Source: a virus (taxonomy: Duplodnaviria > Heunggongvirae > Uroviricota > Caudoviricetes). Taken from it: a DNA stretch of 36,986 bases. The stretch is from the IMG/VR virus record IMGVR_UViG_2671180460_000002, one strand, 5' to 3'. The notes below the pieces were generated by a model that saw nothing but the letters and a program-made list of their open reading frames with translations, was not told where the DNA came from and did no database searches. Every line of letters starts with the position of its first letter. The stretch's first letter is position 1. The translations under genes were made by a program, and so were the position numbers. This document shows, in pieces, positions 6,865-36,986 of this stretch.

Positions 6865-6879
6865 TAAGGGGATTTGTAT

Positions 6880-11710: not shown

Positions 11711-11713
11711 TGG

Positions 11714-11743
11714 TCTGTACAGGCGATCATGTATGGCTATAAT
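11714..11743 (+). promoter_or_regulatory. putative sigma70-type promoter for the Mor/C-family gene
   Basis: Consensus -10 TATAAT at 11738-11743, 30 nt upstream of the start codon; -35 is weak (TGTACA). Confidence 0.4.
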
Positions 11744-11772: not shown

Positions 11773-12240
11773 ATGCAGACCTTCAGTGAAACAGATCTTC
11801 GCGATGCGCAGGCACTACTGCCCGATTCCGTGCAGCAACTGATTAGCGTGATTGGCTTTCCCGCTCTGACCCGGTTAATTCGTTCTTTTGGTGGTGTGAC
11901 GTTAAGCGGTAAAACCGGCGCACACACCGAACGCACCGGCGGTGTCCATGCCCTGTTACATGACGTGCTGACCGAAGACGAAATCAACAAACTGATCCGC
12001 TTTCTTGGCGGTGCGCCGTTTTATATTCCCCGTTGCGATCATGCGTTACGTGCCCTGCGTAACTCCCGTTTTATGGCTGATTTACAGCAACATATAAAAG
12101 GCGGATGCTCACACCGGCAGGCGCTGGCACTGCTTTGTCCACGTTACGGAATTTCAGACCGGTACGCATGGCAACTGATACACCGACGACAAAAACAGAT
12201 TTCGCTGAAGAGCCCCACCCAGGTGGGGCTTTTTGATTAA
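11773..12240 (+). CDS. Mor/C-family transcriptional activator (late gene activator)
   Basis: Contains the Mor-family ...GGAPFYIPR... segment followed by a C-terminal HTH-like region; located after the early terminator and before the lysis and structural genes. Confidence 0.8.
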   Translation: MQTFSETDLRDAQALLPDSVQQLISVIGFPALTRLIRSFGGVTLSGKTGAHTERTGGVHALLHDVLTEDEINKLIRFLGGAPFYIPRCDHALRALRNSRFMADLQQHIKGGCSHRQALALLCPRYGISDRYAWQLIHRRQKQISLKSPTQVGLFD

Positions 12241-12563: not shown

Positions 12564-12580
12564 GGGGTGCTGAACTCCCC
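12564..12580 (+). promoter_or_regulatory. late-promoter dyad motif copy 1 (GGGGTGCTGAACTCCCC)
   Basis: One of three copies of GTGCTGAAC-N-CCC; overlaps a second dyad CACCCC-N8-GGGGTG. Lies upstream of the lysis cassette. Confidence 0.5.
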
Positions 12581-12663
12581 CAGCAGTACCTGCCACTCCA
12601 TACCGCCTATCCTGTCCACTCAGTCTGTAAAACACGCAGGGATAACACTCACAGGAGAATTTC

Positions 12664-13056
12664 ATGTCTGAACCCATTTCAGGCAGCGGCGCGGTGGCAC
12701 TGACCATTGGCGGTGCCGGTGTGTACGGCCTTATCACCAATACCGATTTCGGTGTGGTCGTGGGCGCATTTGCCGGGGCGCTGTTTGTGGTCACCCAGCA
12801 AAAAGAAATCCCGGTCTGGCGCATGATTATCCACCTGATTATCGCGTTTGTGGTCGGCGTTCTGGGGGCCGGTGTGGCGGCGTCACTGATGCAGTGGCTG
12901 ACCCACTACAACGACAAACCCCTCGACGCGTTATGTGCGGTCGGTGTCTCGGCGCTCTCAATCAAGATTCTGACGTTTATTTATAAACAGGATATTTCAT
13001 CGCTGTTTGGCCTGTTTTCACGGCTGCGCGGCGGAGGGGGTGAAAATGGTAAGTAG
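12664..13056 (+). CDS. putative holin-like membrane protein
   Basis: 130 aa with several hydrophobic helices, AGGAG RBS; first gene of the lysis cassette. Confidence 0.45.
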   Translation: MSEPISGSGAVALTIGGAGVYGLITNTDFGVVVGAFAGALFVVTQQKEIPVWRMIIHLIIAFVVGVLGAGVAASLMQWLTHYNDKPLDALCAVGVSALSIKILTFIYKQDISSLFGLFSRLRGGGGENGK

Positions 13057-17324: not shown

Positions 17325-18920
17325 ATGGCACAGCTTGTTGATATTTACGGACGCCCGCTGAAACGTGAGGCACTCAAAACCACGCAGACGGTCAGAGTGG
17401 CGGAACGGCTGCGCATTTATCCAGACCACCCGTCGCGTGGTCTGAACATCAGAAAACTGCCGCGCATTCTGGAAGCCGCCGAGCGTGGTTATCTTCCTGC
17501 GCAGGCGATGCTGTTTGCGGATATGGAAGAGCGTGACGGGCACCTGTTCGCCGAGATGGAAAAGCGCAAAAAAGCGTTGCTGACGCTGGACTGGTCGGTG
17601 GAGCCGCCCCGCAATGCCTCGAAGGCAGAAAAGGAGCTGGCCGCCGCCGTGGATGAGTGGCTGCACGGCATCCCGGACATGGAGGACATCATCCTCAACG
17701 GGATGAGCAGTGTCGGTTACGGCTTCAGCTGTCAGGAAATCAGCTGGGCGTTCGTGGATAAAACGTGGTTACCGGATGCGGTGACGCTGCGCCCGCATAA
17801 CTGGTTCATAACCCTGCCGGAACACAATGACGAACTCCGGCTGGATGACGGCGGTCGCGGGGAAGATGGTAAGGACGGTTCCGCACTGTGGCCGTTCGGC
17901 TGGCTGGTTCACCGTTACAACGCCCGGTCGGGGCTCCTGGGTTCATCCGGCCTGTTCCGCGTACTGGTCTGGCCGTATCTGTTCAAAAACTTTGCGCTGC
18001 GTGATATGGCGGAATTCCTGGAGATTTACGGCCTTCCGGCGCGTATTGCGTACTATGCACAGGGCACCAGTGACGAAGACCGGGACAACATTCTCGAAGC
18101 CCTGGTCAATCTGGGCCATGAAGCGGTGGCAGCCCTGCCGCAGGGTAACGAGATTGAGTTCAAGGAGGCCGCGTCCGGCGGACCGGAGGCGTTCATGTCG
18201 ATGGTGGAATGGGCAGAGCGCACCACCTCAAAAGCAATTCTGGGCAGTACGCTGACCAGCCAGGCTGACGGTAAAACCTCCACCAACGCGCTGGGTAATG
18301 TGCATAACGAGGTCCGGCACGACATTCTGGCCGCCGATGCGCGCCAGCTGTCCGGCATGTTCAGCAGCCTGATACAGATGATGGCCAGCCTGAACGGCTG
18401 GCAGGATATCCCGCCACGCCGTCTGCCGCGTCTGGTGTTTGATGTGCAGCAGGAAGCCGACATTAAGGGCGTGGCGGAAGCCGTCAGTGTGCTGGTCAAC
18501 AGTGTGGGGATGAAGGATATCCCGGCGTCGTGGGTGCGCAAAAAAACCGGTATCCCCACCCCGAAAGACGGCGAAGAGGTGCTGGTGCCGGTGGCACAGC
18601 GTCTCCCTGTGCAGGCGGGCCACAGCCAGCTGCGTGAGCGGATGAATGTTGCCGCACTCAGTCAGCAGGACAACGGGGAGGACGACCTGGCACAGAACGC
18701 CATCGACCGGGCAGAGCTTCCGGCAGAGGCCATCGCGCAGGGGATGAACGAACTGGTGGCCCCACTGGTGCAGGCCATACAGGAAGGCCGGGATGCAGAC
18801 GAGGCCATGAACATACTGGCGGAAGCCTGGCCGGAACTGCCGGATGAAACACTGCGGCAGTTGCTGACACAGGCATTCTTTGTGGCGGATATCTGGGGGC
18901 GACTGAATGCCGACAGCTGA
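17325..18920 (+). CDS. portal protein (Mu gp29/H-like, DUF935-type)
   Basis: 531 aa immediately after the large terminase; AGGAGG RBS; Mu-like synteny. Confidence 0.8.
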   Translation: MAQLVDIYGRPLKREALKTTQTVRVAERLRIYPDHPSRGLNIRKLPRILEAAERGYLPAQAMLFADMEERDGHLFAEMEKRKKALLTLDWSVEPPRNASKAEKELAAAVDEWLHGIPDMEDIILNGMSSVGYGFSCQEISWAFVDKTWLPDAVTLRPHNWFITLPEHNDELRLDDGGRGEDGKDGSALWPFGWLVHRYNARSGLLGSSGLFRVLVWPYLFKNFALRDMAEFLEIYGLPARIAYYAQGTSDEDRDNILEALVNLGHEAVAALPQGNEIEFKEAASGGPEAFMSMVEWAERTTSKAILGSTLTSQADGKTSTNALGNVHNEVRHDILAADARQLSGMFSSLIQMMASLNGWQDIPPRRLPRLVFDVQQEADIKGVAEAVSVLVNSVGMKDIPASWVRKKTGIPTPKDGEEVLVPVAQRLPVQAGHSQLRERMNVAALSQQDNGEDDLAQNAIDRAELPAEAIAQGMNELVAPLVQAIQEGRDADEAMNILAEAWPELPDETLRQLLTQAFFVADIWGRLNADS

Positions 18921-20621: not shown

Positions 20622-20774
20622 GTGGCCAGAAGCGCGCTGTAATCATCTGTGACAACATAAACGCCTCACGGATGAGGCATTACAGCACCGCACCCCATAA
20701 ATGCTGTCAGAATCGTTTTTAAAATGGTTTTAAAAACGGTTTTATTTCCCCTTTTATCCTTTCGCGTTATGGCA

Positions 20775-20789
20775 GGGTGCTGAACACCC
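20775..20789 (+). promoter_or_regulatory. late-promoter dyad motif copy 2 (GGGTGCTGAACACCC)
   Basis: Perfect GGGTG-N5-CACCC dyad in the 200-bp gap before the protease/scaffold gene; an AT-rich TTTTAAAA repeat block lies upstream at 20715-20745. Confidence 0.5.
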
Positions 20790-20821
20790 TCCACAGTACC
20801 CCGTGTTCCCCTTCCGTCATC

Positions 20822-21964
20822 ATGACGCGTATGAAGATGAACATTGCGGCGTTAAGCCTCGAAATTACTAAAGCAACCCACAGCGAAATCCAGCTGTTTC
20901 CGGCAGGTGAGTTCAGTGCAGTGGATGGTCGCCCACATACCGATGAAGTCGAAAGCGGTAAATGGGTGCTGACTGCCGGACTGGCCGCGCAGCTTGTCGC
21001 GCAGGTGGCAGCCCGTACCACGCCATTTGTCATTGATTACGAACATCAGACGCTGCGCGCCGTAAACAACGGCAAGCCTGCCCCGGCGGCGGGCTGGTTC
21101 AGCCAGGTGGAATGGCGTGAAGGCGCGGGCCTGTATGCCATCGGTGTGGAGTGGACGGAGAACGCGGCGGCCATGATTGCCGCCGGTGAGTACAAATTTA
21201 TTTCCCCGGTATTTGGATACAACAAGCGCGGTGAAGTCATCGAACTGTTACACGCCGCACTGACCAATACCCCGGCGCTCGACGGTATGGACGCGGTCAT
21301 GCTGGCTGCGGCCAGCCGTCTTGCGAGTCTGTCAACTGAAACGGAGACCACAACGGTGGATGAAGAACTGTTAAACGATTTGCTGTCCAGTTTGCGCTGG
21401 ATGCTTAACCTCCCGGTGACCTCAACGGCGGAAGATATTAAAAGCGAGCTGCAAAAGGTCGTTGACATGATTTCGAACGGTCAGGGAACGGCGGCGGCAT
21501 CCGTCAGCCTGCTGGCCCTGCTGAATCAGAAAGACGAGCAAATCGCCAGCCTGTCAGCAAATGCCTATGACCCGACGAAGCATATCCCTCTGACGGCATA
21601 TGAAGAACTTCAGGGACGTTATGCCGTACTGGTGCAACAGTCCGGCGAAGCCGAAGCCGGGGCACTGATTCAGGCGGCGCTGTCTGACGGGCGACTGCTT
21701 CCGACGCTGGAAGACTGGGCGAAAGATTACGCTCGTCGCGATATCAACGGTTTTAAAACCTGGCTGGATAAAACCACCCCGCTTGCCGCACTCAGCAGCA
21801 CCCAGACCGGCGGCAAACCACCCAAAACGCCGTCACCGGCCCCGGCGCAGATTAAAACTGGCGATGACGTCGATGTCGATATCGCCATTTGTTCCATGAT
21901 GGGCACTGATCCAGAAGATATCGCCCGTTATGCAGGAAACGACTATTACGCAGGAGATGAGTAA
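20822..21964 (+). CDS. head protease/scaffold protein (Mu I-like)
   Basis: Position and size as Mu gp32/I. Start uncertain (ATG at 20822, 20831 or 20837; none has a strong RBS); the track start at 20777 lies inside the promoter motif. Confidence 0.7.
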   Translation: MTRMKMNIAALSLEITKATHSEIQLFPAGEFSAVDGRPHTDEVESGKWVLTAGLAAQLVAQVAARTTPFVIDYEHQTLRAVNNGKPAPAAGWFSQVEWREGAGLYAIGVEWTENAAAMIAAGEYKFISPVFGYNKRGEVIELLHAALTNTPALDGMDAVMLAAASRLASLSTETETTTVDEELLNDLLSSLRWMLNLPVTSTAEDIKSELQKVVDMISNGQGTAAASVSLLALLNQKDEQIASLSANAYDPTKHIPLTAYEELQGRYAVLVQQSGEAEAGALIQAALSDGRLLPTLEDWAKDYARRDINGFKTWLDKTTPLAALSSTQTGGKPPKTPSPAPAQIKTGDDVDVDIAICSMMGTDPEDIARYAGNDYYAGDE

Positions 21965-23282: not shown

Positions 23283-23624
23283 ATGGAAAAGGTGATTGAA
23301 ATTACCGCCCGCCGTGAGGGTTTTCGCCGCTGCGGCGTGGCGCACAGTGCAACCACGAAGGCATGGCCTGCGGATGCGTTCACCCCGGAACAGCTGGCGG
23401 TGCTGAAAGCTGACCCCATGCTGATTGTGGTGGAGCGCGATAAAGCGTCCGGCCAGAACGACGCGGCCCAAAGTGATGAACTGGCCGCACAGCTGGATGC
23501 CGAGCGTCAGAAAGTCAGCGAACTGACGGCGCAACTGGAAGAAGAACGCCAGAAAGTCAGTGAACTGACCGCACAGCTGAACGCCGCACAGAAAACACAA
23601 AAAGCGAACAAAAAGGAGAAGTAA
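23283..23624 (+). CDS. hypothetical protein with tandem 14-aa repeats
   Basis: GGAG RBS; contains RQKVSELTAQLEEE and RQKVSELTAQLNAA, encoded by a 42-bp tandem repeat at 23505-23588. Confidence 0.45.
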   Translation: MEKVIEITARREGFRRCGVAHSATTKAWPADAFTPEQLAVLKADPMLIVVERDKASGQNDAAQSDELAAQLDAERQKVSELTAQLEEERQKVSELTAQLNAAQKTQKANKKEK

Positions 23625-24059: not shown

Positions 24060-24112
24060 TTACTGAAATTGAACGGGCGCTGGTTGAGCGTCTGCGCTGT
24101 GGTCTGGGGCAT

Positions 24113-27271: not shown

Positions 27272-29534
27272 TTTCAAAGTTGGCATGACCCTGACTGCGA
27301 AGGACGAAGCCTCGCAGGTTCTGGAAAAGGGACAAAAACAGGTTATCAAAGCCACCGAAGGTGTAACAAAGGCAACACGGAAGGCAGGCGCAGAGCAGAC
27401 GCGTACCGGGCAGGAAAGCGTTAACTGCACGAAAAAGGCGGCAAAAGAGATACAGCGTGCCGCCCGTGCCCGGGAAACGCTCGGTATTCGTGCAGAGCGT
27501 GAGATCCGGCGTGAAATTTATCAGACGGTTGCCAGTTATAACCGTCTGGCCCGCGCCGGTTTTGAATCTGCGCAGGAGCAGGAGCGCGCCATGCAGGCCA
27601 CCCGGGAAAAAGCCCGGGCACTCAAGCGCGAACTGGATGGCGTTACTCAGGCTCAGATGAAGATGGCGAAAACGCCTGTTATCCCGGAGCCAGGGCGTTT
27701 TGCGCGTGCGGCTGCATTTGGCGGGAATGCCGTGACAATAGGCGGTGGTATTGCAGCAGGTGCTGCCATTATGGCGCAGCCGGTCAAAAAGCAGATGAGC
27801 TACGAACGCCAGCTGGCAATGATGGCCAATACCGCCTTCAGTGATGGCGGGCTGGAGGGGCGCAGGGCTGGTCTTGAGCAGATGAAAAGCAGCATCCGTA
27901 ACGCGGTGACCTATGGCGGCGGTACGAAAGAAGACGCAGCCGAAACGCTGGATGCCCTGCTGAAAGATGGCGGTATTTCATTTGAAACAGCCAGTAAGTG
28001 GCTGCCTGAACTGATGAAATACGCCACGGCTTCAGGCGCATCAGCGACAGACCTGGCTAATGTGATGCTTAAGGGTAAAAAGACCTTTGGATTCAGGGAT
28101 GAAGATATTTCCACCGTTCTGAATATGGCAATTGCAGCGGGCAAAGAAGGCAGCTTTGAACTGAGCGACATGGCCCGCTGGTTATCTTCGCAACTGGGGT
28201 CAGCGTCAGCTGCGGGGATGAGAGGCAAGGATGATTTTGTCAAGATTCTGGCGCTGAATGAAGCTGCCGCCATCACGGCGGGAAGCAGTGATGAGGCCGG
28301 AAATAACGTGTTTAACCTGCTGGCTAAACTGACCAGCCACGATATTGAAACAGCGGCAAAGCGCATTGATTACAACGGTAAAGGAATTGATTTTTCCGGC
28401 ACGCTGGTTCAGGCGCGCGAACATGGGCTTGATCCGATAGATGCGCTGTCCAGCCTGATAGACAAAATCGTTGCCAGCGATAAACGCTTTCAGGAGTTGC
28501 AAAAGAAACTGGCCTCCGCCCGGGATAAAGGTGAGCAGACGGCTGTTTACGATTCGATGGCAAAACTCCTTGAAGGCTTTGGTGTCGGGAAACTGGTTGC
28601 AGACCAACAGGCGTTAAAAGCGTTGCTGGCTTACCGTAACAACCCTGAATACCGGAAAAAGGTTGAAGACGCGATTAATCAGCAGCGCACCCTGCCGGAA
28701 GGCCAGCGCGCGGGTGATGTGGATTTTAACTTCATATCCGGCCTCAATGACTTTAAAACCGAACAGGCTAAAAACACGCTTGAATTTTCACAAATGGACA
28801 GCGTGAAAAAGCTGGCGGATGCATCCGGTACTGTGGCTGATGCCATAAGCTGGGCGGGTGAAAAGTTTCCGGGACTGACCACGGCAGTGGTGGGTGCCAC
28901 GACCGCCATTGAAGCGATGACCGCAGCGGCCCTGACATGGGCCGGGATCAAAATCCTGACCGGGGGTAAACCCGATGGCAAGGCTGGCGAGGTTGTCGGT
29001 GATGTCATTGAAAACACGGTCAAAAAAGGCAAAGGATTTAAATTCCCCGGCATTGCCGGTAGCCTGCTTTCTTTCGGTGGCACCGTTACGGCACTGGCCA
29101 CCGCAACCAGCCCGGAAGAAGACGCCGCCGTCGAAGGAAGCGAAGAACGCTGGAAGCGCATCCGTGCCCGATACCCCCAGGAAATCATCGACGCTGCCCG
29201 TAAAAAATACCAGCCGTGGTGGCAGTTTGGGGAAGGCTACTCCACCGAAAACGAAGAGTGGTTGAGGCGCTGGGAGGAAGACAGGAAAAAAGCCGCAGCT
29301 GATGCCCTGCCATCACCGGCACAGGTCAACAAAGCCGCCGGAAACACAACGCCTGAATCAGCATCAAAGCAAGCCGGACGCATCACCCAGCCGGAATACC
29401 TCACGCACTGGGTACCACCTGCCAGCCCCATTAATTTCACCACACAACTGGTGCTCGATGGTCAGGTTGTGGCGGAAGCAGTGAACAAATACAACCTTCA
29501 GGACGGTAACAGAGGCACGGGAGGAACTTACTGA
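27261..29534 (+). CDS. tail tape measure protein
   Basis: 757 aa, Ala/Gly-rich with coiled-coil and hydrophobic segments; follows the chaperone pair. Confidence 0.85.
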   Translation: MAGNFKVGMTLTAKDEASQVLEKGQKQVIKATEGVTKATRKAGAEQTRTGQESVNCTKKAAKEIQRAARARETLGIRAEREIRREIYQTVASYNRLARAGFESAQEQERAMQATREKARALKRELDGVTQAQMKMAKTPVIPEPGRFARAAAFGGNAVTIGGGIAAGAAIMAQPVKKQMSYERQLAMMANTAFSDGGLEGRRAGLEQMKSSIRNAVTYGGGTKEDAAETLDALLKDGGISFETASKWLPELMKYATASGASATDLANVMLKGKKTFGFRDEDISTVLNMAIAAGKEGSFELSDMARWLSSQLGSASAAGMRGKDDFVKILALNEAAAITAGSSDEAGNNVFNLLAKLTSHDIETAAKRIDYNGKGIDFSGTLVQAREHGLDPIDALSSLIDKIVASDKRFQELQKKLASARDKGEQTAVYDSMAKLLEGFGVGKLVADQQALKALLAYRNNPEYRKKVEDAINQQRTLPEGQRAGDVDFNFISGLNDFKTEQAKNTLEFSQMDSVKKLADASGTVADAISWAGEKFPGLTTAVVGATTAIEAMTAAALTWAGIKILTGGKPDGKAGEVVGDVIENTVKKGKGFKFPGIAGSLLSFGGTVTALATATSPEEDAAVEGSEERWKRIRARYPQEIIDAARKKYQPWWQFGEGYSTENEEWLRRWEEDRKKAAADALPSPAQVNKAAGNTTPESASKQAGRITQPEYLTHWVPPASPINFTTQLVLDGQVVAEAVNKYNLQDGNRGTGGTY

Positions 29535-30883
29535 TGGGCTGGGCTGAAAACCTGCAAAACGCTTCCTTTCGTGGCGTGCAGTTTGATGTACTGAACACGG
29601 ATGAACAAATCAGCCGCGACCATACGGTCTATGAATACCCGTTTGTTGACGGGGCGGATTTGCACGACCTCGGACGCAAGGCGCGACCGTTCCGCATGAC
29701 GGCGTTCCTGTGGGGGGAGTTTTACGAATATAAACTTGAAAAGCTGATCGCCGCCCTGGATAAAGGCGGCGATGGTGAGCTGATTCACCCGGTTTACGGC
29801 TCCGTACCGTCGGTGATTGTGACCGGCTACAGCATTCGCCATGACGCAGAAAGCCCGGACAGCTGCACCATCGACATGAGTTTTCTGGAGAACCGCACCG
29901 GCAGCGCGTTGTTCAGCACCCCGTTACCGGAGCTGTTTGCACAGCAGTTATTTGAAGAACTGGATAAGTTACTGGAACAGTTAAGCGAATTATTTGACGC
30001 TGTTACGGCCCCTTTAAAGACCATTAACAGCGTGATTAAAAAAATCCAGACGGTGCGTGCCACGCTGGTGAATACCCTGCTGACGTTCAAAAGCGATTTT
30101 CTCTCATCCATCGACAATATGATGTCACTGGCCAGCGAACCCGGAAAGTTCATCGGCGGGCTGGCAGAGGTGCTGGAAATCCACACGTCAGATGTCGGGC
30201 ACGCGGTGCCGGTGCTGGAGCGTACTGATTCCGCCACCACGACCGGACTGACCGGAGAAGACAGCGTCGCCAGTTCTGCGACCGTGATGACCTGCTGGAA
30301 TGAGGTGATGGCAGATATGGATGAGCTGGTCGCGCTGCCGGTCGCACTGGTCAGCGGTGATAAAACGCCGTCTGTGGCACTTCCGCCGGATGCGTCCGTG
30401 GAAGACGTGCAGGACGTGAAAGCGGCTTATGCGGTTCTGGCAGCCTCAGAGCTGGCCAGCGTGGCGACGGCGATACTGTCAGATGAGGCCCAGTCAGAGC
30501 AGCTTATACCGGCGGATATCGGGCGACTGGTCGGGGATGTGCGCACCCGCTTACAGGCCGCCATTACGCTGTTCCGTGAACGCTATGAAGGCGAACGCGA
30601 ACGGATAACCGAAACCGCATCACCACTGGGGCTGATGTACCCGGAAATCATTCAGAGCATGAAGAACGTGGCGGCATCCGTGCAGGATGTCGGCCTGCTG
30701 GTTCTGTCACGCCGCCCACCGCTGACGCAGAAACAGGTGCAGGCGGACAGCTGTCTGCTGTTGCTGGCGTGGCAGTGGTACGGCGACTACAGCCGTGCGG
30801 CAGAGCTGCAACGTCTGAACCCGCAGCTGCGTGACCCGAACAACATAACCGCCGGGATGGTGATTAATGCCTATGCAAAATAA
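29534..30883 (+). CDS. Mu gp43/N-like protein (DNA circularisation protein family)
   Basis: N-terminus MGWAENLQNASFRGVQFDV matches the DNA_circ_N-type start; GGAGG RBS; follows tape measure. Confidence 0.75.
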   Translation: MGWAENLQNASFRGVQFDVLNTDEQISRDHTVYEYPFVDGADLHDLGRKARPFRMTAFLWGEFYEYKLEKLIAALDKGGDGELIHPVYGSVPSVIVTGYSIRHDAESPDSCTIDMSFLENRTGSALFSTPLPELFAQQLFEELDKLLEQLSELFDAVTAPLKTINSVIKKIQTVRATLVNTLLTFKSDFLSSIDNMMSLASEPGKFIGGLAEVLEIHTSDVGHAVPVLERTDSATTTGLTGEDSVASSATVMTCWNEVMADMDELVALPVALVSGDKTPSVALPPDASVEDVQDVKAAYAVLAASELASVATAILSDEAQSEQLIPADIGRLVGDVRTRLQAAITLFRERYEGERERITETASPLGLMYPEIIQSMKNVAASVQDVGLLVLSRRPPLTQKQVQADSCLLLLAWQWYGDYSRAAELQRLNPQLRDPNNITAGMVINAYAK

Positions 30884-32078
30884 CGACGACAAAATCAGCC
30901 TGGTCATTGCCGGAAGGTCGCATTCTGACTGGAGCAGTTATCGTATTGACAGTGATTTCCTGAAAGCCGCCGACGGCTGGCAGCTTCAGCTGGGACTGCC
31001 TGAAAAGGTGTTCCCGGCGGATATCGTCCGGGGTGCGCCGGTCCGTTTGCAGGTGGGAGACGAGACGGTGCTCAGTGGGCGCGTGGACAGCGTGCGCCGC
31101 AGTGTATCCCGTCAGAGCTGCACGCTGACCCTGTCCGGGCGTGATGATGCCGCCATTCTGGTGGACTGTGCCGCGCCGGTATTCAGCGCCAACCAGCTGA
31201 CGCTGGACGAGGTCATCGACAGGATAGTCAGACCGCTGGGGATACAGCGCATCCGTATTCAGGCGTCCGGTGTGTCACGTAATGACAAGGTCGTTATAGA
31301 GCCGGGGATGCGTGCGTGGGATGCACTGGCCAAAGCTGCCGCCGGTCGCGGCTTATGGCCGTGGTTTGAGCCTGACGGGACGCTGGTTGTGGGTGGTCCT
31401 GACTACACCACCACGCCGGTGGACACGCTGCTTCTGACGCTGGACGGTACCGGGAACAACGTGATGGAGCTGGACGATACCCGGTCCATTAACGGCTGCT
31501 TCTCCGAACTGACGGTTCTGGCCCAGAGCCACGCCCGCCGCGCAGACAGCAAGAAACAGGTAGCCGTGGTGCCACTGGACATCTGGAACGAGGACGGCAG
31601 CGTGCGCACATTATCCGGGCAGGACAGCGGTAATACGGATAATGGCCAGACAGGCATTCACAACATGAAAGCCGTGGCCACCGACCCCACCGTGGATTAT
31701 TACCGCCCGCAGATAATCACCCAGGGCGACACCAGCAACATGGAGCAGGTGAACTGGCGCGCAAAAAAAATGATGAGTGATGCCCGTCTGTCGGGGCTGG
31801 ATATCGTCGCACTGGTTGCAGGCCATCGCACGGCGGACGGTGTCCTGTGGCAGCCCGGCCAGCGTGTGCGGATTGTCAGCGAACTCCACGGCATCGACGC
31901 CATCTTTTTCCTGATGGGGCGTGAGTTCAGCAGAGGCCGGAACGGGCAGACAACCCGGCTCCGCTTTAAGGAGGATGGCGTGTGGATACCTGATGCCTTC
32001 CCGCGCGAGAAGAAACGCCATCATCGCAGGGGCAAAAAGAAAAAAGAGGTCGCCATTGTTAAGGTCTGGGAGAAATGA
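30867..32078 (+). CDS. baseplate hub protein (Mu gp44/P-like)
   Basis: 403 aa in Mu synteny after gp43-like; overlaps the upstream gene end. Confidence 0.75.
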   Translation: MPMQNNDDKISLVIAGRSHSDWSSYRIDSDFLKAADGWQLQLGLPEKVFPADIVRGAPVRLQVGDETVLSGRVDSVRRSVSRQSCTLTLSGRDDAAILVDCAAPVFSANQLTLDEVIDRIVRPLGIQRIRIQASGVSRNDKVVIEPGMRAWDALAKAAAGRGLWPWFEPDGTLVVGGPDYTTTPVDTLLLTLDGTGNNVMELDDTRSINGCFSELTVLAQSHARRADSKKQVAVVPLDIWNEDGSVRTLSGQDSGNTDNGQTGIHNMKAVATDPTVDYYRPQIITQGDTSNMEQVNWRAKKMMSDARLSGLDIVALVAGHRTADGVLWQPGQRVRIVSELHGIDAIFFLMGREFSRGRNGQTTRLRFKEDGVWIPDAFPREKKRHHRRGKKKKEVAIVKVWEK

Positions 32079-32728
32079 TGTGGGACAAGGTTAATCAGCG
32101 CGTACAGCAGGCGCTGTCCGCCGTTCGCCAGGCATTCAGGGTGGTGACCGGTACGGTGGACAGTTCGACCAAAGTACAGCTTCTCCAGCTAAACGGGCTG
32201 GCAGGCGAACAGCTGGACGGTGCGGAGTATTTTCAGCATTACGGCCTCACCACATCCCCGCCGCCCGGCTCAATGGGTATTGCCGTTCCGCTGAACGGTA
32301 ATACCTCCCATACGGTTGTGGTCGCCACAGAGCACGGCGCATATCGCCTGACGGAACTGAAACCCGGGGAAGTGGCCCTGTATACCGACGAAGGCGCGAA
32401 AATCGTACTGAAGCGCGGGCGGATTGTTGAAACCGAATGTGACGTTTACCGGGTGAAATGCAAACGCTATGAGGTTGAGGCAGAGGAGAACGCCGCATTC
32501 ACGACACCGTTACTGACAGCCAGCGACAGGCTGATGGTGGAAGGCAAAATCACCGGCAACGGTGGCATGGCCATCAGCGGAGGTAAGAAATATGCCGCCA
32601 CCTTTGAAGGCAACATCAACCATGTGGGTGGTGTGATTACCTCCGTTGACGTCACCATTAATGGCGTTAAAATCGGAACGCACAAACACCCGACCCCACA
32701 CGGCATGTCTGACACGCCGGTTAATTAA
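32075..32728 (+). CDS. baseplate central spike protein (Mu gp45-like, gpV-type)
   Basis: 217 aa; C-terminal GTHKHPTPHG resembles the His-containing apex motif of spike proteins. Confidence 0.7.
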   Translation: MMWDKVNQRVQQALSAVRQAFRVVTGTVDSSTKVQLLQLNGLAGEQLDGAEYFQHYGLTTSPPPGSMGIAVPLNGNTSHTVVVATEHGAYRLTELKPGEVALYTDEGAKIVLKRGRIVETECDVYRVKCKRYEVEAEENAAFTTPLLTASDRLMVEGKITGNGGMAISGGKKYAATFEGNINHVGGVITSVDVTINGVKIGTHKHPTPHGMSDTPVN

Positions 32729-32741
32729 GTGCTGAACACCC
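32729..32741 (+). promoter_or_regulatory. late-promoter dyad motif copy 3 (GTGCTGAACACCC)
   Basis: Third copy of the motif, beginning 1 nt after the gp45-like stop and 53 nt before the gp46-like ATG. Confidence 0.45.
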
Positions 32742-32781
32742 TCACCTGATTCTGACCTGTCCATGCTGCCAGACTGGCGGC

Positions 32782-33132
32782 ATGGACCAGACGATTTCAC
32801 CTGCAACCGGCGACTACGAACGCCGCCGGATTTATACACTTCATAACGCGGTTTATCTGCGACTGGCGACACCGCTTGGCAGTTACTGGGCGGATGCGTC
32901 GCTGGGGTCACGCCTGCACGAACTGAAGCGGGAAAAAGACGTTTCCCGTGTTCACCGGCTGGCGGCGCAGTATGCCAGCCAGGCACTTCAGCCCCTGCTT
33001 GATGACGGGCGGGCGACAGCAATTACCGTTGACACGAAAGCGGGCCAGCGCGGCTGGCTGTTGCTGTTAATCACCGTCACGGATAACGCGGGCACACCGC
33101 AGACGTTTGAACACCCTGTGAGGATTATGTAA
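32782..33132 (+). CDS. baseplate protein (Mu gp46-like)
   Basis: 116 aa directly upstream of the baseplate-J-like gene, as Mu gp46. Confidence 0.65.
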   Translation: MDQTISPATGDYERRRIYTLHNAVYLRLATPLGSYWADASLGSRLHELKREKDVSRVHRLAAQYASQALQPLLDDGRATAITVDTKAGQRGWLLLLITVTDNAGTPQTFEHPVRIM

Positions 33133-34211
33133 TGCCGTTTTCTGTTCCGGGCGTTGCTGAAAACACAGAACGCCAGCTACGTGATATCGCTAACGCCCTG
33201 CCGGGAGAAACCATCGACACCGGCGCTGACAGCGATTACCGCATTCGTGCAAATGCCGTATCCGGCGTGGCGGACGGACTTTATATGCATCAGGGATGGA
33301 TCCTCCGTCAGGTGTTTCCTGACACGGCAGCCCCTGAATATCTGGAGCTGCACTGTCGCACGCGCAATGTTTTTCGTAAAAAAGCAACGGCCTCATCCGG
33401 TCCGGTGGTGATTACCGGCACACCCGGTAAGACGCTGCCAGCCGGTGCGGAAATTCGTGGTGAAGGTGTCAGCGTGGCCACCACAGCAGACTGCACCATC
33501 GGTGATAAAGGCAGCGCAGAGGTGACGGTAAAAAGCACCGCCACGGGTGCACAGACGAATGCATCCACGACGCAGACGGCAACGCTGGTCAGCCCACCTG
33601 AAGGCATCAACAGCACGGTGACGATTAAATCCCTGACCGGAGGAACGGACAGGGAAAGCGACGCCGACCTGCTGGCGCGTTATCTGGATATTCTGCGCAG
33701 GCCGCCCGCTGGCGGTAATAAATATGATTACAAACGCTGGGCGCTGGAAGTGGATGGCGTTACGTCTGCGTATGTGGAGCCGTTGCGTCGTGGACTGGGG
33801 ACGGTTGATGTGGCCATTACGTCAGCCAATGACCTCCCTTCGCAGGAACTGATTAATGCCGTGCTGGCACATATTGAGGAAGTCCGCCCGGTCACAGCAA
33901 AGGACACGATGGTACTAGCCCCGACGAAAAAAGCCGTTGATTTCGTTGTCCGGGTAAAAACCAGCGGCCTGACCGTTGAGCAGATAAAACCGCAGATAAC
34001 TGACGTTATCACGGATTTTATGAACCGGCTGGAGCCGGGGCAGGAATTAATAATTTCACAACTGGAAACCCAGATTTCATTAATTTCCGGTGTCAGTGAC
34101 CGGCGAATCATTACGCCAGCAGACAACGTAAAAGCCATTATTAACGCGTCAACGTGGGAATGGCTGCGCCCGGGAAATATTGATATTCAGTCTTTTCCAC
34201 GTGAGGGGTGA
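33132..34211 (+). CDS. baseplate J-like protein (Mu gp47-like)
   Basis: 359 aa; start overlaps the upstream stop; size and position of Baseplate_J family proteins. Confidence 0.8.
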   Translation: MPFSVPGVAENTERQLRDIANALPGETIDTGADSDYRIRANAVSGVADGLYMHQGWILRQVFPDTAAPEYLELHCRTRNVFRKKATASSGPVVITGTPGKTLPAGAEIRGEGVSVATTADCTIGDKGSAEVTVKSTATGAQTNASTTQTATLVSPPEGINSTVTIKSLTGGTDRESDADLLARYLDILRRPPAGGNKYDYKRWALEVDGVTSAYVEPLRRGLGTVDVAITSANDLPSQELINAVLAHIEEVRPVTAKDTMVLAPTKKAVDFVVRVKTSGLTVEQIKPQITDVITDFMNRLEPGQELIISQLETQISLISGVSDRRIITPADNVKAIINASTWEWLRPGNIDIQSFPREG

Positions 34212-34215
34212 TTTT

Positions 34216-34788
34216 ATGAATATGGTCGATTTATTTCGCGCCATGCTGCCACCTGTCAGTTATGACCTGAACGGGAAATATATTTCCGCAGAACTGACAG
34301 CCGAGGCTGACGTCATGGAGGCCGTGAAGGCCTCAGCGGCGCGCGTTCTGGCACAAATCACCCCGTTGCAGGCATCGATGACGCTGTCCGACTGGGAGCG
34401 CGTGTACGGTGTTGTCCCCCGTGAAGGGGCAATACAACAGGAGCGGCGGCAGAACATTCTGGTAAAAATGGCAGCCACGGGCGGGCTGTCAATCCCTTAC
34501 TTTAAGAGCCTTGCCGCCAGTCTGGGCTATACCATCACCATTACGGAGCCGCGACCGTTCCGGGTGGGGATAAACCGCTGCGGCGACCGTCTGCTGATAC
34601 CGGAAATCCGCTGGGTGTGGCAGGTCAACGTTATCGGGACAAAAACACCTGTCTACCGGTTCAGAACGGGCGCATCGGCAACCGGCGAACCGCTGACGGC
34701 CTTTGGTGAATCCATTTTAGAAAACACGTTTAAAGACTTTAAACCGGCTTTTACGGACTGTTATTTCACGTATGAGGTGGAGGAATAA
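34216..34788 (+). CDS. tail protein (Mu gp48-like, DUF2313-type)
   Basis: ATG at 34216 after GAGGGG; about 190 aa between baseplate J and the tail fibre. Confidence 0.65.
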   Translation: MNMVDLFRAMLPPVSYDLNGKYISAELTAEADVMEAVKASAARVLAQITPLQASMTLSDWERVYGVVPREGAIQQERRQNILVKMAATGGLSIPYFKSLAASLGYTITITEPRPFRVGINRCGDRLLIPEIRWVWQVNVIGTKTPVYRFRTGASATGEPLTAFGESILENTFKDFKPAFTDCYFTYEVEE

Positions 34789-35591
34789 TGCAGAATTTAA
34801 TGCCCCCGGTGAATACGCCGGATAAGTTATTTCATGATGGTGACCCGACTCAGGGAATTGAGGGAACCATCGTTACTGCTGAATTTATGAATAATCATCA
34901 GGCAGCAACGCGTGATTTGCAGCAGGAGGTGATTAACGTCCTTAAAGAAGCTGGCGTCACCCCTGACCCGGAAAAACAAAACCAGCTGGTTGAGGCGCTG
35001 ACCTCGTTTATTGGCCAGAAAGTCCCGGATGCATCACTGACGCAAAAAGGTGTAGTGCAGCTTAACAGTGCTGTTAACAGTGAATCAGAAACAGAAGCAG
35101 CTACGCCAAAAGCGGTCAAGATTACGATGGATAACGCAAACGCCAGACTGGCAAAAGACCGTAACGGCGCAGACATCCCGAATAAACAATTGTTTCTGGA
35201 TAACATCGGCGGTGCGCCGAAAACGCGCAAAATTAACAATATGCCCCTGACGTCGGATATCACCATCAGCAACATCGGCGGCAACGCCGGAACGGCAACC
35301 CGCCTTCAGACGGCCCGCAGGATTAACAATGTGCTGTTTGATGGCACCAGTGATATCACCATCAGCACCACCGATTCTGGTGCAGTACGTAATTTCAGAT
35401 ACACCAGCGAAGTGTTTCACAATCCCGGTGGTAACGAAATTTCCTGGGTATTCCGCGCGCCTTCAGGGTGTATTTTGTCAGGTATTAACGTTCAGGAAAC
35501 TGGCAAAAGCTCTGCGGATAACATCGGTGGTGTGTATTACAAACAAACTCAGATTTATATCAATGGCGGATGGCGCACGGTATCCGGCTAA
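34788..35591 (+). CDS. tail fibre protein (Mu S-like position)
   Basis: Contains KGVVQLNSAVNSESETEAATPKAVK, the conserved tail-fibre motif seen in lambda Stf and P2 H; strong GGAGG RBS; followed by an assembly chaperone. Confidence 0.75.
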   Translation: MQNLMPPVNTPDKLFHDGDPTQGIEGTIVTAEFMNNHQAATRDLQQEVINVLKEAGVTPDPEKQNQLVEALTSFIGQKVPDASLTQKGVVQLNSAVNSESETEAATPKAVKITMDNANARLAKDRNGADIPNKQLFLDNIGGAPKTRKINNMPLTSDITISNIGGNAGTATRLQTARRINNVLFDGTSDITISTTDSGAVRNFRYTSEVFHNPGGNEISWVFRAPSGCILSGINVQETGKSSADNIGGVYYKQTQIYINGGWRTVSG

Positions 35592-35605
35592 TTAAGGAGA
35601 AAATA

Positions 35606-36130
35606 ATGGAACTCAGAAACGTCACACGTTATTACCCTGAAAATATGCCTTATGGTGAAAATATTCAGTATTTCCGCAGTAAAGACGGACATGATTTTTA
35701 TGAATCACAGGATAAATTCACGAAGAAATACAAATTGTGTATTCACCCTGAAACCGGCGTGATTTATTCAATGGCGGAAGACGTTTCCCGTCTTTATCCT
35801 GTTGGTTTTACCATTGTGGAAGTGGACGAATTGCCTGAAGGGTTTGGTATTGAAGCCAGCTGGTATTACCGGGACGGCGAAGTACTGCCGGTGCCCGTTG
35901 ATTACCCACGATTATCAGAAAAACAACGCCAGCGTCTGCTGAATGAAGCAAAGGACATCACTTCTGACTGGAAAACCGAACTGGAGCTGGGCACCCTCAG
36001 CGATGATGACAAAGCCCGTCTTACGCAGTGGATGGAATATATCAAAGCGGTAAAGGCGCTGGATTTAAGTCAGGTCATTGATGAATCTTCCTTTTATTTA
36101 ATTCAGTGGCCGGAAAAACCTGACGTGTAA
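35606..36130 (+). CDS. tail fibre assembly protein (Tfa/U-like)
   Basis: ATG at 35606 after AAGGAG; about 175 aa directly downstream of the fibre gene. Confidence 0.75.
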   Translation: MELRNVTRYYPENMPYGENIQYFRSKDGHDFYESQDKFTKKYKLCIHPETGVIYSMAEDVSRLYPVGFTIVEVDELPEGFGIEASWYYRDGEVLPVPVDYPRLSEKQRQRLLNEAKDITSDWKTELELGTLSDDDKARLTQWMEYIKAVKALDLSQVIDESSFYLIQWPEKPDV

Positions 36131-36136
36131 AACAAT

Positions 36137-36166
36137 AACGGTCGCTGTCTGGCGACCGTTTTCAGT
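36137..36166 (+). terminator. putative intrinsic terminator after the tfa gene
   Basis: 9-bp stem AACGGTCGC/GCGACCGTT with a 6-nt loop, followed by a T-rich TTCAGTT. Confidence 0.5.
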
Positions 36167-36177
36167 TCAGAGGCTTT

Positions 36178-36986
36178 ATGTCTGTATTAATTTCAGGTGC
36201 ACTTGTTAATGGCACTGGCGTTCCGATGGCGGAATGCAAAATTTATTTAGATGCACTGGTTAATACCAGTGAAGTGGTTATTGAATCATTTGCGGTTATT
36301 GAAACCGATGCGGCGGGACAGTATGCCTTTGAAGCGCAGACAGGAAAATATGCCGTTCATATAAAACAAAAGAACGGCCCGAAATGTTGCGTGGGGAATA
36401 TTGCTGTTTATGACGATTCAAAGCCCGGCACGCTGAACGACTTTCTGACCGCCCCCGATGAAGGCGACCTCAAACCCGACGTGGTAAAACGCTTTGAGGA
36501 AATGGTGGCACAGGCGCAGCAGAGCGCAGAAGCCGCCGCTGGCAGCAAACAACAGGCAGGACAACACGCCACTGATGCACAGCAGATTAAGGCCGACTGT
36601 CAGGCGCTGGCGAAAGACGTACAGCAGAAAGCCGACGCGGTTGCGGAGGGTAAACAACAGGCCGAAAATCTGGTCTCACAGGTTGAGAATGCCGCCGAGG
36701 AGGTAAAAAAGGACGCTGAAGCTGCTAAACAGGCCGCATCTGATGCAGAGCATGTCAGGGAGGATATTGACACCGCGTTATCTGCGACACTGAAAACGGC
36801 GAATCGTTTATCAGAGCTGGCTGATGAAGGTGAAGAGGCTCAGCAGGAATCCCGTGATAATCTTGGACTGAAAAGCGCAGCCACGATGACGCCACAGAGC
36901 GACATTCGCGACCGGACTGAAGGCCGTCTGGCGACACCTGGCGCATTTGGTTTTGGGCATATTTTTCTGCCCGCAGAGCGTATCCG
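36178..36986 (+). CDS. side tail fibre protein, lambda Stf-like N-terminal domain (3' partial, runs off window)
   Basis: MSVLISGALVNGTGVPMAECKIYL...GKYAVHIKQ...IAVYDDSKPGTLNDFL...PDVVKRFEEMV parallels the lambda Stf N-terminus. No stop in window, so absent from the supplied track. Confidence 0.8.
   Translation, partial: MSVLISGALVNGTGVPMAECKIYLDALVNTSEVVIESFAVIETDAAGQYAFEAQTGKYAVHIKQKNGPKCCVGNIAVYDDSKPGTLNDFLTAPDEGDLKPDVVKRFEEMVAQAQQSAEAAAGSKQQAGQHATDAQQIKADCQALAKDVQQKADAVAEGKQQAENLVSQVENAAEEVKKDAEAAKQAASDAEHVREDIDTALSATLKTANRLSELADEGEEAQQESRDNLGLKSAATMTPQSDIRDRTEGRLATPGAFGFGHIFLPAERI

What the first reader, a model, noticed from the sequence alone, without database searches (positions are those of the whole stretch)
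32726..32785. Internal late promoter candidate inside the tail/baseplate gene string
Motif copy 3 begins 1 nt after the gp45-like stop and 53 nt before the gp46-like ATG, inside an otherwise tightly packed, overlapping tail gene block. This suggests the baseplate genes have their own activator-dependent promoter, analogous to Mu PP but placed before the gp46 analogue rather than the gp44 analogue.
Basis: partly seen in the sequence, partly recalled or inferred. Interest (0 to 1): 0.5.

Follow-up and report, generated by a model that had tools for sequence, protein, structure and literature searches.

The report
Conserved internal late promoter before gp46
The only real non-coding gap in the tail genes of this Mu-like E. 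coli prophage very probably holds a promoter switched on by the phage's own late activator. It is predicted to start the message exactly at the start codon of the baseplate gene gp46, and a conserved hairpin hides that codon in any message read through from upstream.

Summary
GTGCTGAACACCCTC (32729-32743) directly follows the gp45 stop, lies 53 nt before the gp46 ATG, and is an exact copy of the 15-mer upstream of gene I (20777). A 13/15 copy precedes the holin gene (12567).

A weight matrix built only from distant relatives scores this site highest in the whole window: 25.6 bits against a best of 20.4 in 200 shuffles.

- **Conservation:** 67 of 69 distinct relatives with a gp45-gp46 gap carry the motif there.
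- **Co-variation:** the motif changes together with the gene I and lysis copies of the same genome, and with the recognition helix of the single Mor/C-family activator (11773-12240).
- **Geometry:** the imperfect dyad CTGA-N6-TCAC lies 31.5 nt before a -10-like hexamer (CAGACT, 32770-32775) and 43.5 nt before the A of the ATG. This is the geometry of Mu C and Mor sites. There is no -35 and no usable Shine-Dalgarno sequence.

I therefore read it as an activator-dependent late promoter, probably giving a leaderless gp46 message. A covarying 13-bp hairpin (32759-32787) pairs the start codon only in read-through RNA.

It is the functional counterpart of Mu PP at a different place. No transcript has been mapped, and a Klebsiella clade that starts gp46 with GTG argues against strict leaderless translation.

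The parts
32075..32728 (+). gp45-like baseplate spike gene, stop TAA at 32726-32728 (context)
   Evidence: Pfam Phage_Mu_Gp45, E 8.6e-24. RefSeq sets the same end in E2348/69.
32729..32745 (+). Predicted activator-binding site: the exact 15-mer repeat 32729-32743, and the imperfect dyad CTGA-N6-TCAC at 32732-32745 (centre 32738.5)
   Evidence: Exact copy of 20777-20791. Top weight-matrix hit of the window at 25.6 bits. Kept in 67 of 69 distinct relatives with a gap. Co-varies with the gene I copy and with the activator's recognition helix.
32746..32769 (+). Spacer with no -35 hexamer (TGATTC at the -35 position matches TTGACA at 1 of 6)
   Evidence: Read from the sequence. The sigma-70 consensus scan calls no promoter here. 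The sequence varies among relatives.
32770..32775 (+). -10-like hexamer CAGACT (A at position 2, T at position 6), 38 nt after the start of CTGA and 6 nt before the ATG
   Evidence: The offset of 38 is the same at all three window copies: TATCCT at 12608, CATCAT at 20818, CAGACT at 32770. An nAnnnT hexamer lies 6-7 nt before the start codon in 62 of 69 distinct relatives. The leadered lysis promoters of relatives have TATACT, GATACT or TACACT at the same offset.
32776..32781 (+). G+C-rich stretch GGCGGC between the hexamer and the start codon; also part of the 3' arm of the hairpin
   Evidence: Sequence; alignment A2.
32782..32782 (+). Predicted transcription start (+1), the A of the gp46 ATG, give or take 1 nt (inferred, not mapped)
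   Evidence: The dyad centre lies 43.5 nt upstream in 49 of 67 motif-bearing relatives, range 41.5-45.5. SuMu shows the same 43.5 nt with a different motif. Mu C and Mor sites are centred at -43.5 (PMC2582627).
32759..32787 (+). 13-bp hairpin GUCCAUGCUGCCA-GAC-UGGCGGCAUGGAC that pairs the start codon; the -10 hexamer lies in its tip
   Evidence: Free energy -23.0 kcal/mol. The AUG is paired with probability 1.0 in read-through RNA and 0.04-0.09 in RNA starting at 32782. z = -3.07. Covariation: 90.5% of cells paired, 6 pairs with compensatory change, 0 of 500 shuffles reach this. CAU/AUG becomes CAC/GUG in the Klebsiella clade.
32782..33132 (+). gp46-like baseplate wedge gene, first gene of the predicted unit (gp46, gp47, gp48, tail fibre genes)
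   Evidence: Pfam GP46 and phrog_180. No usable Shine-Dalgarno sequence: -4.8 kcal/mol at spacing 0.
20777..20833 (+). Motif copy 2, the counterpart of Mu PI: 15-mer at 20777-20791, CATCAT at 20818-20823, gene I ATG at 20831
   Evidence: Gene I has no Shine-Dalgarno sequence, +0.7 kcal/mol.
12567..12620 (+). Motif copy 1, the counterpart of Mu Plys: GTGCTGAACTCCCCC at 12567-12581, TATCCT at 12608-12613, predicted start about 12620. A leader of about 45 nt with AGGAG precedes the holin ATG at 12664.
11773..12240 (+). The only Mor/C-family activator gene in the window, the presumed factor acting on all three motif copies
   Evidence: Pfam Mor 28.7 bits against a cut-off of 24.9, and phrog_836 'late transcriptional activator' at E 1e-42. 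No second copy by tblastn. Its recognition helix co-varies with the motif.

Best explanation
The gap 32729-32781 is a late promoter that depends on the phage's single Mor/C-family activator (gene 11773-12240).

**Proposed mechanism.**
- An activator oligomer binds the imperfect dyad CTGA-N6-TCAC (32732-45), which occupies the place of the missing -35.
- It helps host sigma-70 RNA polymerase use the weak -10 hexamer CAGACT (32770-75).
- Transcription starts at or within a base of the A of the gp46 ATG (32782). This gives a message for gp46, gp47, gp48 and the tail fibre genes whose first cistron is leaderless.
- RNA read through from the upstream late promoter carries both arms of a 13-bp hairpin that buries the gp46 start codon. 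gp46 would then be translated mainly from promoter-started RNA.

**Shown here.** The motif, its statistics, its conservation, its co-variation with the other two copies and with the activator helix, the fixed geometry, the lack of a -35 and of a Shine-Dalgarno sequence, and the covarying hairpin.

**Inferred.** Binding by the activator, the start site, leaderless translation, and masking of read-through RNA.

**Confidence by step.** About 0.8 that it is an activator-dependent late promoter; about 0.55 that the gp46 message is leaderless; about 0.45 that the hairpin masks the start codon in read-through RNA.
For: **The site itself.**
- It is an exact 15-mer copy of the site upstream of gene I, with a 13/15 copy upstream of the holin gene. 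All three are on the + strand in the three real non-coding gaps of the late region.
- A weight matrix built from relatives only ranks it first in the window: 25.6 bits against a shuffle maximum of 20.4.

**Conservation.**
- The gap is 98-100% identical among close relatives, while the gp45 gene is 87-96% identical.
- 67 of 69 distinct relatives with a gap carry the motif.
- In L042 a 1-kb insertion after gp45 left the module next to the gp46 ATG.

**Co-variation.**
- Gap copy against gene I copy: 3.38 mismatches within a genome, 7.60 between genomes, 0 of 10,000 permutations.
- The Klebsiella phage has CTGAAG in all three promoters.
- SuMu has a different dyad, GGAA-N4-TTCC, at the same three places.
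- Recognition helix against motif: SDR[FYIQ].W goes with CTGAAC and SDRTGW with CTGAAG, in two separate clades. [GC]DR[TG]GWR goes with CTGACA.
- Some lineages carry the motif directly before the activator gene itself.

**Geometry.**
- The offset from CTGA to the hexamer is 38 nt in all three window copies, and also in the leadered lysis promoters of relatives, which have good hexamers.
- The dyad centre lies 43.5 nt from the start codon in 49 of 67 relatives and in SuMu. This equals the -43.5 reported for Mu C and Mor (PMC2582627).

**Leaderless reading.** gp46 and gene I are the only late genes with no usable Shine-Dalgarno sequence.

**Hairpin.**
- It covaries.
- It pairs the AUG only in read-through RNA.
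- Strong structure around +1 is found at gp46 (mean -19.5 kcal/mol) and partly at gene I (-8.2), but not at the leadered lysis promoters (-1.6).
Against: - No transcript end, binding assay or reporter exists. All of this is comparative inference.
- CAGACT matches TATAAT at only 3 of 6 positions. Its A2 and T6 are also the closing pair of the hairpin triloop, so in the window the hexamer could be a by-product of the hairpin. Relatives with larger loops and lineages without a hairpin still keep nAnnnT.
- 11 of 69 distinct relatives, all in the Klebsiella clade, start gp46 with GTG. E. coli translates GUG poorly on leaderless RNA (PMC9031893).
- In G+C-rich lineages GGAAAAT could be read as a weak ribosome-binding site rather than a -10.
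- Copy 3 lacks the flanks that copies 1 and 2 share (GG..GGG upstream, CAGTACC downstream). It may therefore be weaker, or differently tuned.
- The activator shows only weak similarity to Mu C and Mor (E 5e-5 and 2e-4), so carrying the -43.5 rule over to it is an assumption.
Confidence: 0.8

Rival explanations
1. The gap is mainly an RNA element. The hairpin would act in the polycistronic tail message as a processing site, as a 3' stabiliser for the gp43-45 part, or as a translational control of gp46. The CTGAAC motif would then not drive transcription here.
For: The hairpin is strong and covaries, including compensation at the start codon and G.U wobbles on the + strand. The GTG clade fits translation from a longer RNA better than leaderless translation.
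Against: This does not explain why the motif matches the gene I and lysis copies of the same genome and tracks the activator helix. It does not explain why the motif keeps the 38-nt offset to an nAnnnT hexamer, as at the hairpin-free lysis promoters. Lineages without a hairpin keep the motif and the geometry. There is no Rfam match. The two functions can coexist, and my model includes the hairpin.
Confidence: 0.08
2. It is a promoter or operator, but the motif is read by another factor, either a host protein or another phage protein, and not by the Mor/C-like protein.
For: No binding data exist. The window's activator gene has its own sigma-70-like TATAAT (11738-43) and no motif upstream.
Against: Recognition-helix residues change together with motif bases in independent clades. 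SuMu has a divergent activator (33% identity) and a different dyad at the same three places. The window has only one Mor-family gene, and no other late regulator was found among the ten proteins scanned against Pfam and PHROGs. In several lineages the motif sits right before the activator gene.
Confidence: 0.05
3. It is a chance match or a decaying relic, for example a piece copied from the gene I promoter by recombination, with no present function.
For: Copy 3 shares only the 15-nt core with copies 1 and 2 and lacks their flanks. A search allowing 3 mismatches is not in itself above chance.
Against: The matrix score exceeds all 200 shuffles. The gap is more conserved than the flanking genes. 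The module is kept down to about 45% gp45 identity, and across a 1-kb insertion.
Confidence: 0.03

Closest known systems
Phage Mu late promoter PP (and Plys, PI), activated by protein C
   Same: A phage activator of the Mor/C family. An imperfect dyad that replaces the -35 and lies 31.5 nt before the -10, which is -43.5 (PMC2582627). A recognisable -10 and no -35. A three-promoter layout of lysis genes, gene I and baseplate/tail genes.
   Different: - The recognition sequence differs: CTGA-N6-TCAn against Mu's ATAACCCC-type box.
- The position differs. Mu PP lies inside gene N, about 390 nt before P (gp44), and Mu gp45 and gp46 overlap. Here the promoter fills a dedicated gap two genes further on.
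- There is one activator instead of the Mor-then-C cascade.
- The predicted start falls on the start codon, and a hairpin pairs that codon. Mu gene I has a leader with AGGA.
Single-activator Mu-like phages: Haemophilus phage SuMu, Klebsiella phage ST405-OXA48phi1.1, and E. coli Mu-like prophages such as the one in E2348/69
   Same: Same gene order, the same gp45-gp46 gap, and an activator-type motif in it. The window belongs to this group, which was found in 59 of 5,426 complete E. coli genomes.
   Different: The papers I could search describe no promoter at this place. The SuMu paper does not contain the word 'promoter', and the Mannheimia paper mentions it only in its methods. SuMu uses GGAA-N4-TTCC and has a terminator-like inverted repeat before it. 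The Klebsiella clade uses CTGAAG and a GTG start.
IS10 'fold-back inhibition' of transposase translation in read-through transcripts (from my own knowledge: Davis, Simons and Kleckner 1985; not checked here)
   Same: The start codon pairs with a sequence that lies upstream of the element's own transcription start. Only RNA coming from outside carries both arms and is silenced.
   Different: Here it sits inside a phage late operon, not at the edge of a transposable element. The effect on translation is only predicted.
Leaderless lambda cI mRNA from PRM
   Same: An activator-dependent promoter whose transcript starts at the AUG. cI is named as a leaderless mRNA in PMC9031893; the PRM details are from my own knowledge.
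   Different: Here the gene is a late structural gene and the activator belongs to the Mor/C family. The start is not mapped, and some relatives use GTG.

Membership tests
Mor/C-dependent late promoters of Mu-like phages | A Mor/C-family activator is encoded by the same phage | tested here: met
   11773-12240: Pfam Mor 28.7 bits (cut-off 24.9), phrog_836 E 1e-42. It shares the GGxxFYIPRC segment with Mu C and Mor.
Mor/C-dependent late promoters of Mu-like phages | An imperfect dyad-symmetrical site overlapping the -35 region, centred at -43.5 | tested here: met
   The centre of CTGA-N6-TCAC (32738.5) lies 31.5 nt before the hexamer at 32770, which is -43.5 if the hexamer spans -12 to -7. The same holds for 49 of 67 relatives and for SuMu. 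This is measured from the -10, not from a mapped start.
Mor/C-dependent late promoters of Mu-like phages | A recognisable -10 hexamer and no -35 hexamer | tested here: met
   CAGACT has A2 and T6 and matches 3 of 6. The -35 position reads TGATTC, 1 of 6. The consensus scan finds no sigma-70 promoter in the gap.
Mor/C-dependent late promoters of Mu-like phages | Transcription requires the activator, and the activator binds the site | not testable with these tools
   Only indirect support: helix-motif co-variation and concerted change of all copies within a genome.
Mu C regulon proper (Plys, PI, PP, Pmom) | A C box of the Mu type (ATAACCCC-like) and the PP position within N, upstream of P | tested here: not met
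   The window motif is GTGCTGAACACCCTC. Mu PP is at 27298-27317 inside N, and Mu has no gp45-gp46 gap. The matrix finds no site inside the window's gp43 gene.
Leaderless mRNA | The primary 5' end coincides with the start codon | not testable with these tools
   Predicted from the geometry only.
Leaderless mRNA | An AUG start codon and no Shine-Dalgarno sequence | tested here: met
   The window has ATG, and the best anti-SD pairing is -4.8 kcal/mol at spacing 0. Among relatives 58 have ATG and 11 have GTG. The GTG clade is a caveat.
Fold-back masking of a start codon in read-through RNA (IS10 type) | The start codon pairs with a segment that lies upstream of the element's own transcription start | tested here: met
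   A 13-bp stem, 32759-71 with 32775-87. Pairing probability is 1.0 against 0.04-0.09. Covariation. This depends on the predicted start.
Fold-back masking of a start codon in read-through RNA (IS10 type) | Translation is blocked on read-through RNA and allowed on promoter-started RNA | not testable with these tools
   No expression data.
Intrinsic terminator | A G+C-rich hairpin followed directly by a run of U | tested here: not met
   The hairpin is followed by CAGACGAUUUCACC. The scan calls no terminator at 32759-32800 on the + strand.

The most novel reading that the evidence does not exclude
In a wide clade of single-activator Mu-like phages, the first genes of two late units (gp46, and partly gene I) are expressed through a compact module. 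It consists of an activator site, a -10 placed in the tip of a hairpin, and a start codon at +1. The promoter-started RNA is leaderless and translatable. RNA read through from upstream folds back on the start codon and is silent. Synthesis of these proteins would then be tied to fresh, activator-dependent initiation rather than to operon read-through. As far as I could find, this design has not been described for phage late genes.
Probability: 0.4. Interest if true: 0.65.

Novelty: new variant of a known kind. Interest (0 to 1): 0.5.

Why it matters
- **Transcription units.** It moves the baseplate/tail-fibre unit boundary of a common family of Mu-like prophages to the gp45|gp46 junction. This family includes those of pathogenic E. 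coli, Klebsiella, Morganella, Yersinia, Xenorhabdus and Haemophilus.
- **Specificity of the activator family.** It provides a set of matched activator and site variants (CTGAAC, CTGAAG, CTGACA, GGAA-N4-TTCC) from which the DNA-recognition code of the Mor/C family could be read.
- **A testable case of leaderless translation.** It gives a simple test of a leaderless structural-gene message in enterobacteria, where such messages are thought rare. The case comes with a built-in hairpin that would distinguish promoter-started RNA from read-through RNA.
- **Annotation.** It explains why gp46 and gene I have no ribosome-binding site, and it warns against moving their start codons.

Tried and rejected
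**Searches that gave little.**
- A near-identity search of the phage collection with 30000-36986 found only tail-fibre pieces.
- A single-protein scan with the activator reached only relatives at 92-99% identity. I replaced it with sheath- and portal-anchored scans.
- Rfam found nothing, at gathering and at E-value thresholds.
- Literature searches found no description of a promoter at this junction or of leaderless late messages in Mu-like phages. The search on IS10 fold-back inhibition found no usable source.

**An error corrected.** My first regular expression placed the TCA arm one base off, so its hit list was meaningless. I replaced it with the weight matrix.

**Readings considered and rejected.**
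- CATGCT (32762-67) as the -10. A2 or T6 is lost in several lineages, and it would put the dyad at about -36.
- A start upstream of the hairpin. The activator site would then be centred at about -26.
- An intrinsic terminator. No run of U follows the hairpin.
- The other 53-nt 'gap' (24060-24112) as a second internal promoter. The reading frame is open from 24035 and no motif is there.
- The 22.4-bit hit at 36843(-). It is antisense inside a tail-fibre ORF, has G at an otherwise invariant position and has no in-register -10, so it is probably chance.
- A hairpin around the -10 as a general feature of this activator's promoters. The leadered lysis promoters have a mean of -1.6 kcal/mol there.
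Full report
**What the window is.** The window is a Mu-like, transposable prophage read left to right.
- A repressor gene lies on the minus strand (412-1092).
- Pfam or PHROGs hits identify GemA (11264-11677), one Mor/C-family 'late transcriptional activator' (11773-12240), a holin (12664-13056), and the tail/baseplate genes gp43 (29534-30883), gp44 (30867-32078), gp45 (32075-32728), gp46 (32782-33132) and gp47 (33132-34211).
- The A-like (1478-3520) and B-like (3538-4431) transposition genes are assigned only from ORF size and position.
- A further + strand tail-fibre ORF starting at 36247 runs off the right end.
- The same prophage, at 92-97% identity, is present in 59 of 5,426 complete E. 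coli genomes, including E2348/69. RefSeq there annotates the same gp45 end and gp46 start.
- No sequenced phage isolate is closely related at the DNA level.

**Check of the observation.**
- TAA at 32726-28 ends gp45, GTGCTGAACACCCTC begins at 32729, and the gp46 ATG is at 32782, so the gap is 53 nt.
- The 15-mer recurs exactly at 20777, in the 209-nt gap before gene I. It recurs with two mismatches at 12567, in the 119-nt gap before the holin gene.
- By my own arithmetic, an exact second copy of a given 15-mer is expected about 7e-5 times in this window.
- A weight matrix built from 26 unique sites of relatives below 85% identity, with the window left out, scores 32732(+) at 25.6 bits. That is the best position on either strand. 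The best score per shuffle over 200 shuffles had mean 13.4 and maximum 20.4.
- All other junctions of the 21.9-36.1 kb structural block overlap or are at most 14 nt. The one other apparent 53-nt gap (24060-24112) is coding.

**Relatives.**
- Sheath-, portal- and gp45-anchored scans returned about 240 loci from Intestinirhabdus, Xenorhabdus, Photorhabdus, Serratia, Morganella, Yersinia, Bergeriella and many uncultivated viral contigs. I also fetched Mu, Klebsiella phage ST405-OXA48phi1.1 and Haemophilus phage SuMu.
- Of 73 distinct gp46 upstream sequences, 69 have a gap. Of those 69, 67 carry an activator-type motif at a fixed distance from the start codon: 65 of CTGA type and 2 of GGAA-N4-TTCC type.
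- Among close relatives the non-coding gap is 98-100% identical, while the adjacent gp45 gene is 87-96% identical and gp46 95-98%.
- In L042 a 1-kb insertion carrying an extra gene sits after gp45, yet the motif, hexamer and hairpin module stays next to the gp46 ATG.
- Mu itself has no gap, since gp45 and gp46 overlap. A few distant lineages also have none.

**Link to the activator.**
- Within a genome, the gap motif resembles the gene I motif much more than it resembles the gene I motifs of other genomes: 3.38 against 7.60 mismatches over 22 nt, 21 distinct pairs, 0 of 10,000 permutations.
- Lineage-specific variants appear in all copies together. Examples are CCCCGCCAACTC in Morganella types, CCTCTTCACACAC in L071, and CTGACACCTGTCA in L059. 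The Klebsiella phage has CTGAAG in its gap, gene I and lysis copies.
- SuMu's activator is 33% identical to the window's. SuMu has a different dyad, GGAA-N4-TTCC, at the same three places.
- The predicted recognition helix changes with the motif. SDR[FYIQ][AG]W goes with CTGAAC. SDRTGW goes with CTGAAG, seen in the Klebsiella clade and separately in L110, whose sister lineages have SDRQGW and CTGAAC. [GC]DR[TG]GWR goes with CTGACA.
- In the L116-L126 and L163 lineages, which by comparison are the Xenorhabdus-, Photorhabdus- and Morganella-type phages, a further copy sits right before the activator gene itself.
- The window has only one Mor-family gene.
- These facts make the 11773-12240 protein the likely reader of the motif. 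Binding itself is inferred.

**Geometry.**
- The conserved core reads as an imperfect dyad, CTGA-N6-TCAn. It is a perfect CTGAACCCCCTCAG in the L001 gene I copy.
- In all three window copies an nAnnnT hexamer starts 38 nt after the C of CTGA: TATCCT at 12608, CATCAT at 20818, CAGACT at 32770.
- The leadered lysis promoters of relatives have TATACT, GATACT or TACACT at the same offset.
- The dyad centre is thus 31.5 nt before the hexamer, which is -43.5 for a hexamer at -12 to -7. This is the position reported for the C site at Mu late promoters (PMC2582627).
- At gp46 the hexamer ends 6 nt (sometimes 7) before the start codon. The dyad centre is 43.5 nt from the A of the ATG in 49 of 67 relatives, range 41.5-45.5. 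It is exactly 43.5 nt in SuMu despite the different motif.
- No -35 is present, and the consensus scan finds no self-sufficient promoter.

**Consequence: a leaderless first cistron.**
- With +1 at 32782 give or take 1, the gp46 message has no leader. The same holds, within 1-2 nt, for gene I, whose conserved start is ATG 20831 (MKMNIAAL).
- In keeping with this, gp46 and gene I are the only late genes with no usable Shine-Dalgarno pairing: -4.8 kcal/mol at spacing 0, and +0.7 kcal/mol.
- The holin promoter has a leader of about 45 nt with AGGAG.
- The start is a purine in every case.

**The hairpin.**
It pairs the start codon and the next codon and holds the -10 hexamer in its tip.
- Across 19 distinct sequences a 10-pair helix is 90.5% paired and has 6 pairs with compensatory changes. 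None of 500 shuffles reaches this, and all slid controls are far lower.
- A-to-G changes that keep G.U with the U of AUG argue for selection at the RNA level on the + strand. So does the switch of CAU/AUG to CAC/GUG in the Klebsiella clade.
- In RNA that starts upstream the AUG is paired with probability 1.0. In RNA that starts at 32782 the probability is 0.04-0.09.
- Structure around +1 is strong at gp46 (mean -19.5 kcal/mol), intermediate at gene I (-8.2), and absent at the leadered lysis promoters (-1.6, median 0). It therefore goes with 'start codon at +1', not with the activator's promoters in general.
- My reading is that read-through RNA is translationally masked at gp46, while promoter-started RNA, which lacks the 5' arm, is open. 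This resembles IS10 fold-back inhibition, which I cite from memory.
- Other roles cannot be excluded: a processing site, a 3' stabiliser of the upstream message, or a pause signal.

**Weak points.**
- Nothing has been measured.
- CAGACT is a poor -10, and in the window its A2 and T6 are also the closing pair of the triloop.
- Copy 3 lacks the flanks shared by copies 1 and 2.
- Eleven of 69 relatives use GTG, which E. coli reads poorly on leaderless RNA, although natural leaderless messages suffer less (PMC9031893).
- In G+C-rich lineages GGAAAAT could be a weak ribosome-binding site.
- The activator is only distantly related to Mu C and Mor.

**Comparison with what is known.**
- The element works like Mu PP, the C-dependent promoter of the baseplate/tail genes. 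It is not a member of the Mu C regulon, because the box differs and so does the place.
- I located Mu PP from the published primer sequences (PMC4461284). Its C-box is at 27298-27317, inside gene N and about 390 nt before P.
- In SuMu and in the Bergeriella relative the same junction carries a terminator-like inverted repeat followed by the promoter module. So gp45|gp46 appears to be a transcription-unit boundary across this clade.
- The papers I could search do not describe it.

**Verdict.** I rate it a new variant of a known kind: a Mor/C-type late promoter at a new, conserved position, with a predicted leaderless start and a start-codon-masking hairpin. Confidence is about 0.8 for 'activator-dependent late promoter', about 0.55 for 'leaderless', and about 0.45 for 'read-through masking'. 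Interest is 0.5.

Noticed in passing
window 36822-36843 (minus strand): Second-best weight-matrix hit of the window (22.4 bits, CCTGCTGAGCCTCTTCACCTTC). It is antisense inside a + strand tail-fibre ORF that starts at 36247 and runs off the window end. It has G at an otherwise invariant position and no in-register -10, so it is probably chance.
   Followed up: partly
window 20714-20746: An A/T-phased element, CGTTTTTAAAATGGTTTTAAAAACGGTTTTATTT, lies between gene G and gene I and is kept in relatives. Mu has its strong gyrase site in the same interval (cut site 17879), so this may be its counterpart.
   Followed up: no
window 11684-11743: The activator gene is preceded by a terminator-like hairpin with a T-run (11684-11709) and a consensus TATAAT (11738-11743). 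It has no CTGAAC motif. The L116-L126 and L163 lineages instead have the motif plus AATACT right before the activator ATG, which suggests autoregulation there.
   Followed up: partly
window 6809-6864 and 7434-7489: A 56-nt direct repeat (84% identical) containing a G+C-rich hairpin (GGCGTAAA.CCGCCGGGGCTGGCTTACGCC) flanks ORF 6874-7425 in the early region.
   Followed up: no
window 23478-23603: Three tandem 42-nt repeats lie inside ORF 23283-23624 and encode a repeated ELxAQL...RQKVS segment.
   Followed up: no
L042, between gp45 and gp46: A 1,015-nt gap with inserted sequence that appears to hold an extra ORF lies after the gp45 stop. The promoter, hairpin and ATG module remains intact next to gp46.
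   Followed up: partly
L172-L189 and L170 (Klebsiella phage ST405-OXA48phi1.1, 29735-29802): The whole clade starts gp46 with GTG, and the 5' arm of the hairpin has CAC in place of CAT. L180 and L183 carry two tandem CTGAAG motifs in the gap.
   Followed up: partly
L171 (SuMu) 30415-30516, 18295-18533, 9448-9616: ACAAGCGGTC repeats occur upstream of gp46, gene I and the activator gene, and in the gp45-gp46 gap they form an inverted pair. From my own knowledge this is the Pasteurellaceae uptake signal sequence. The inverted pair looks like a terminator placed just before the promoter motif.
   Followed up: no
L165, about 4.4 kb before and 3.8 kb after the portal gene start: In this distant lineage the lysis-side promoter also has the leaderless layout: GCCGCCGAACATGGCGGC directly followed by ATG. 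It is almost identical to the gene I copy of the same genome. The module therefore recurs before different genes.
   Followed up: no
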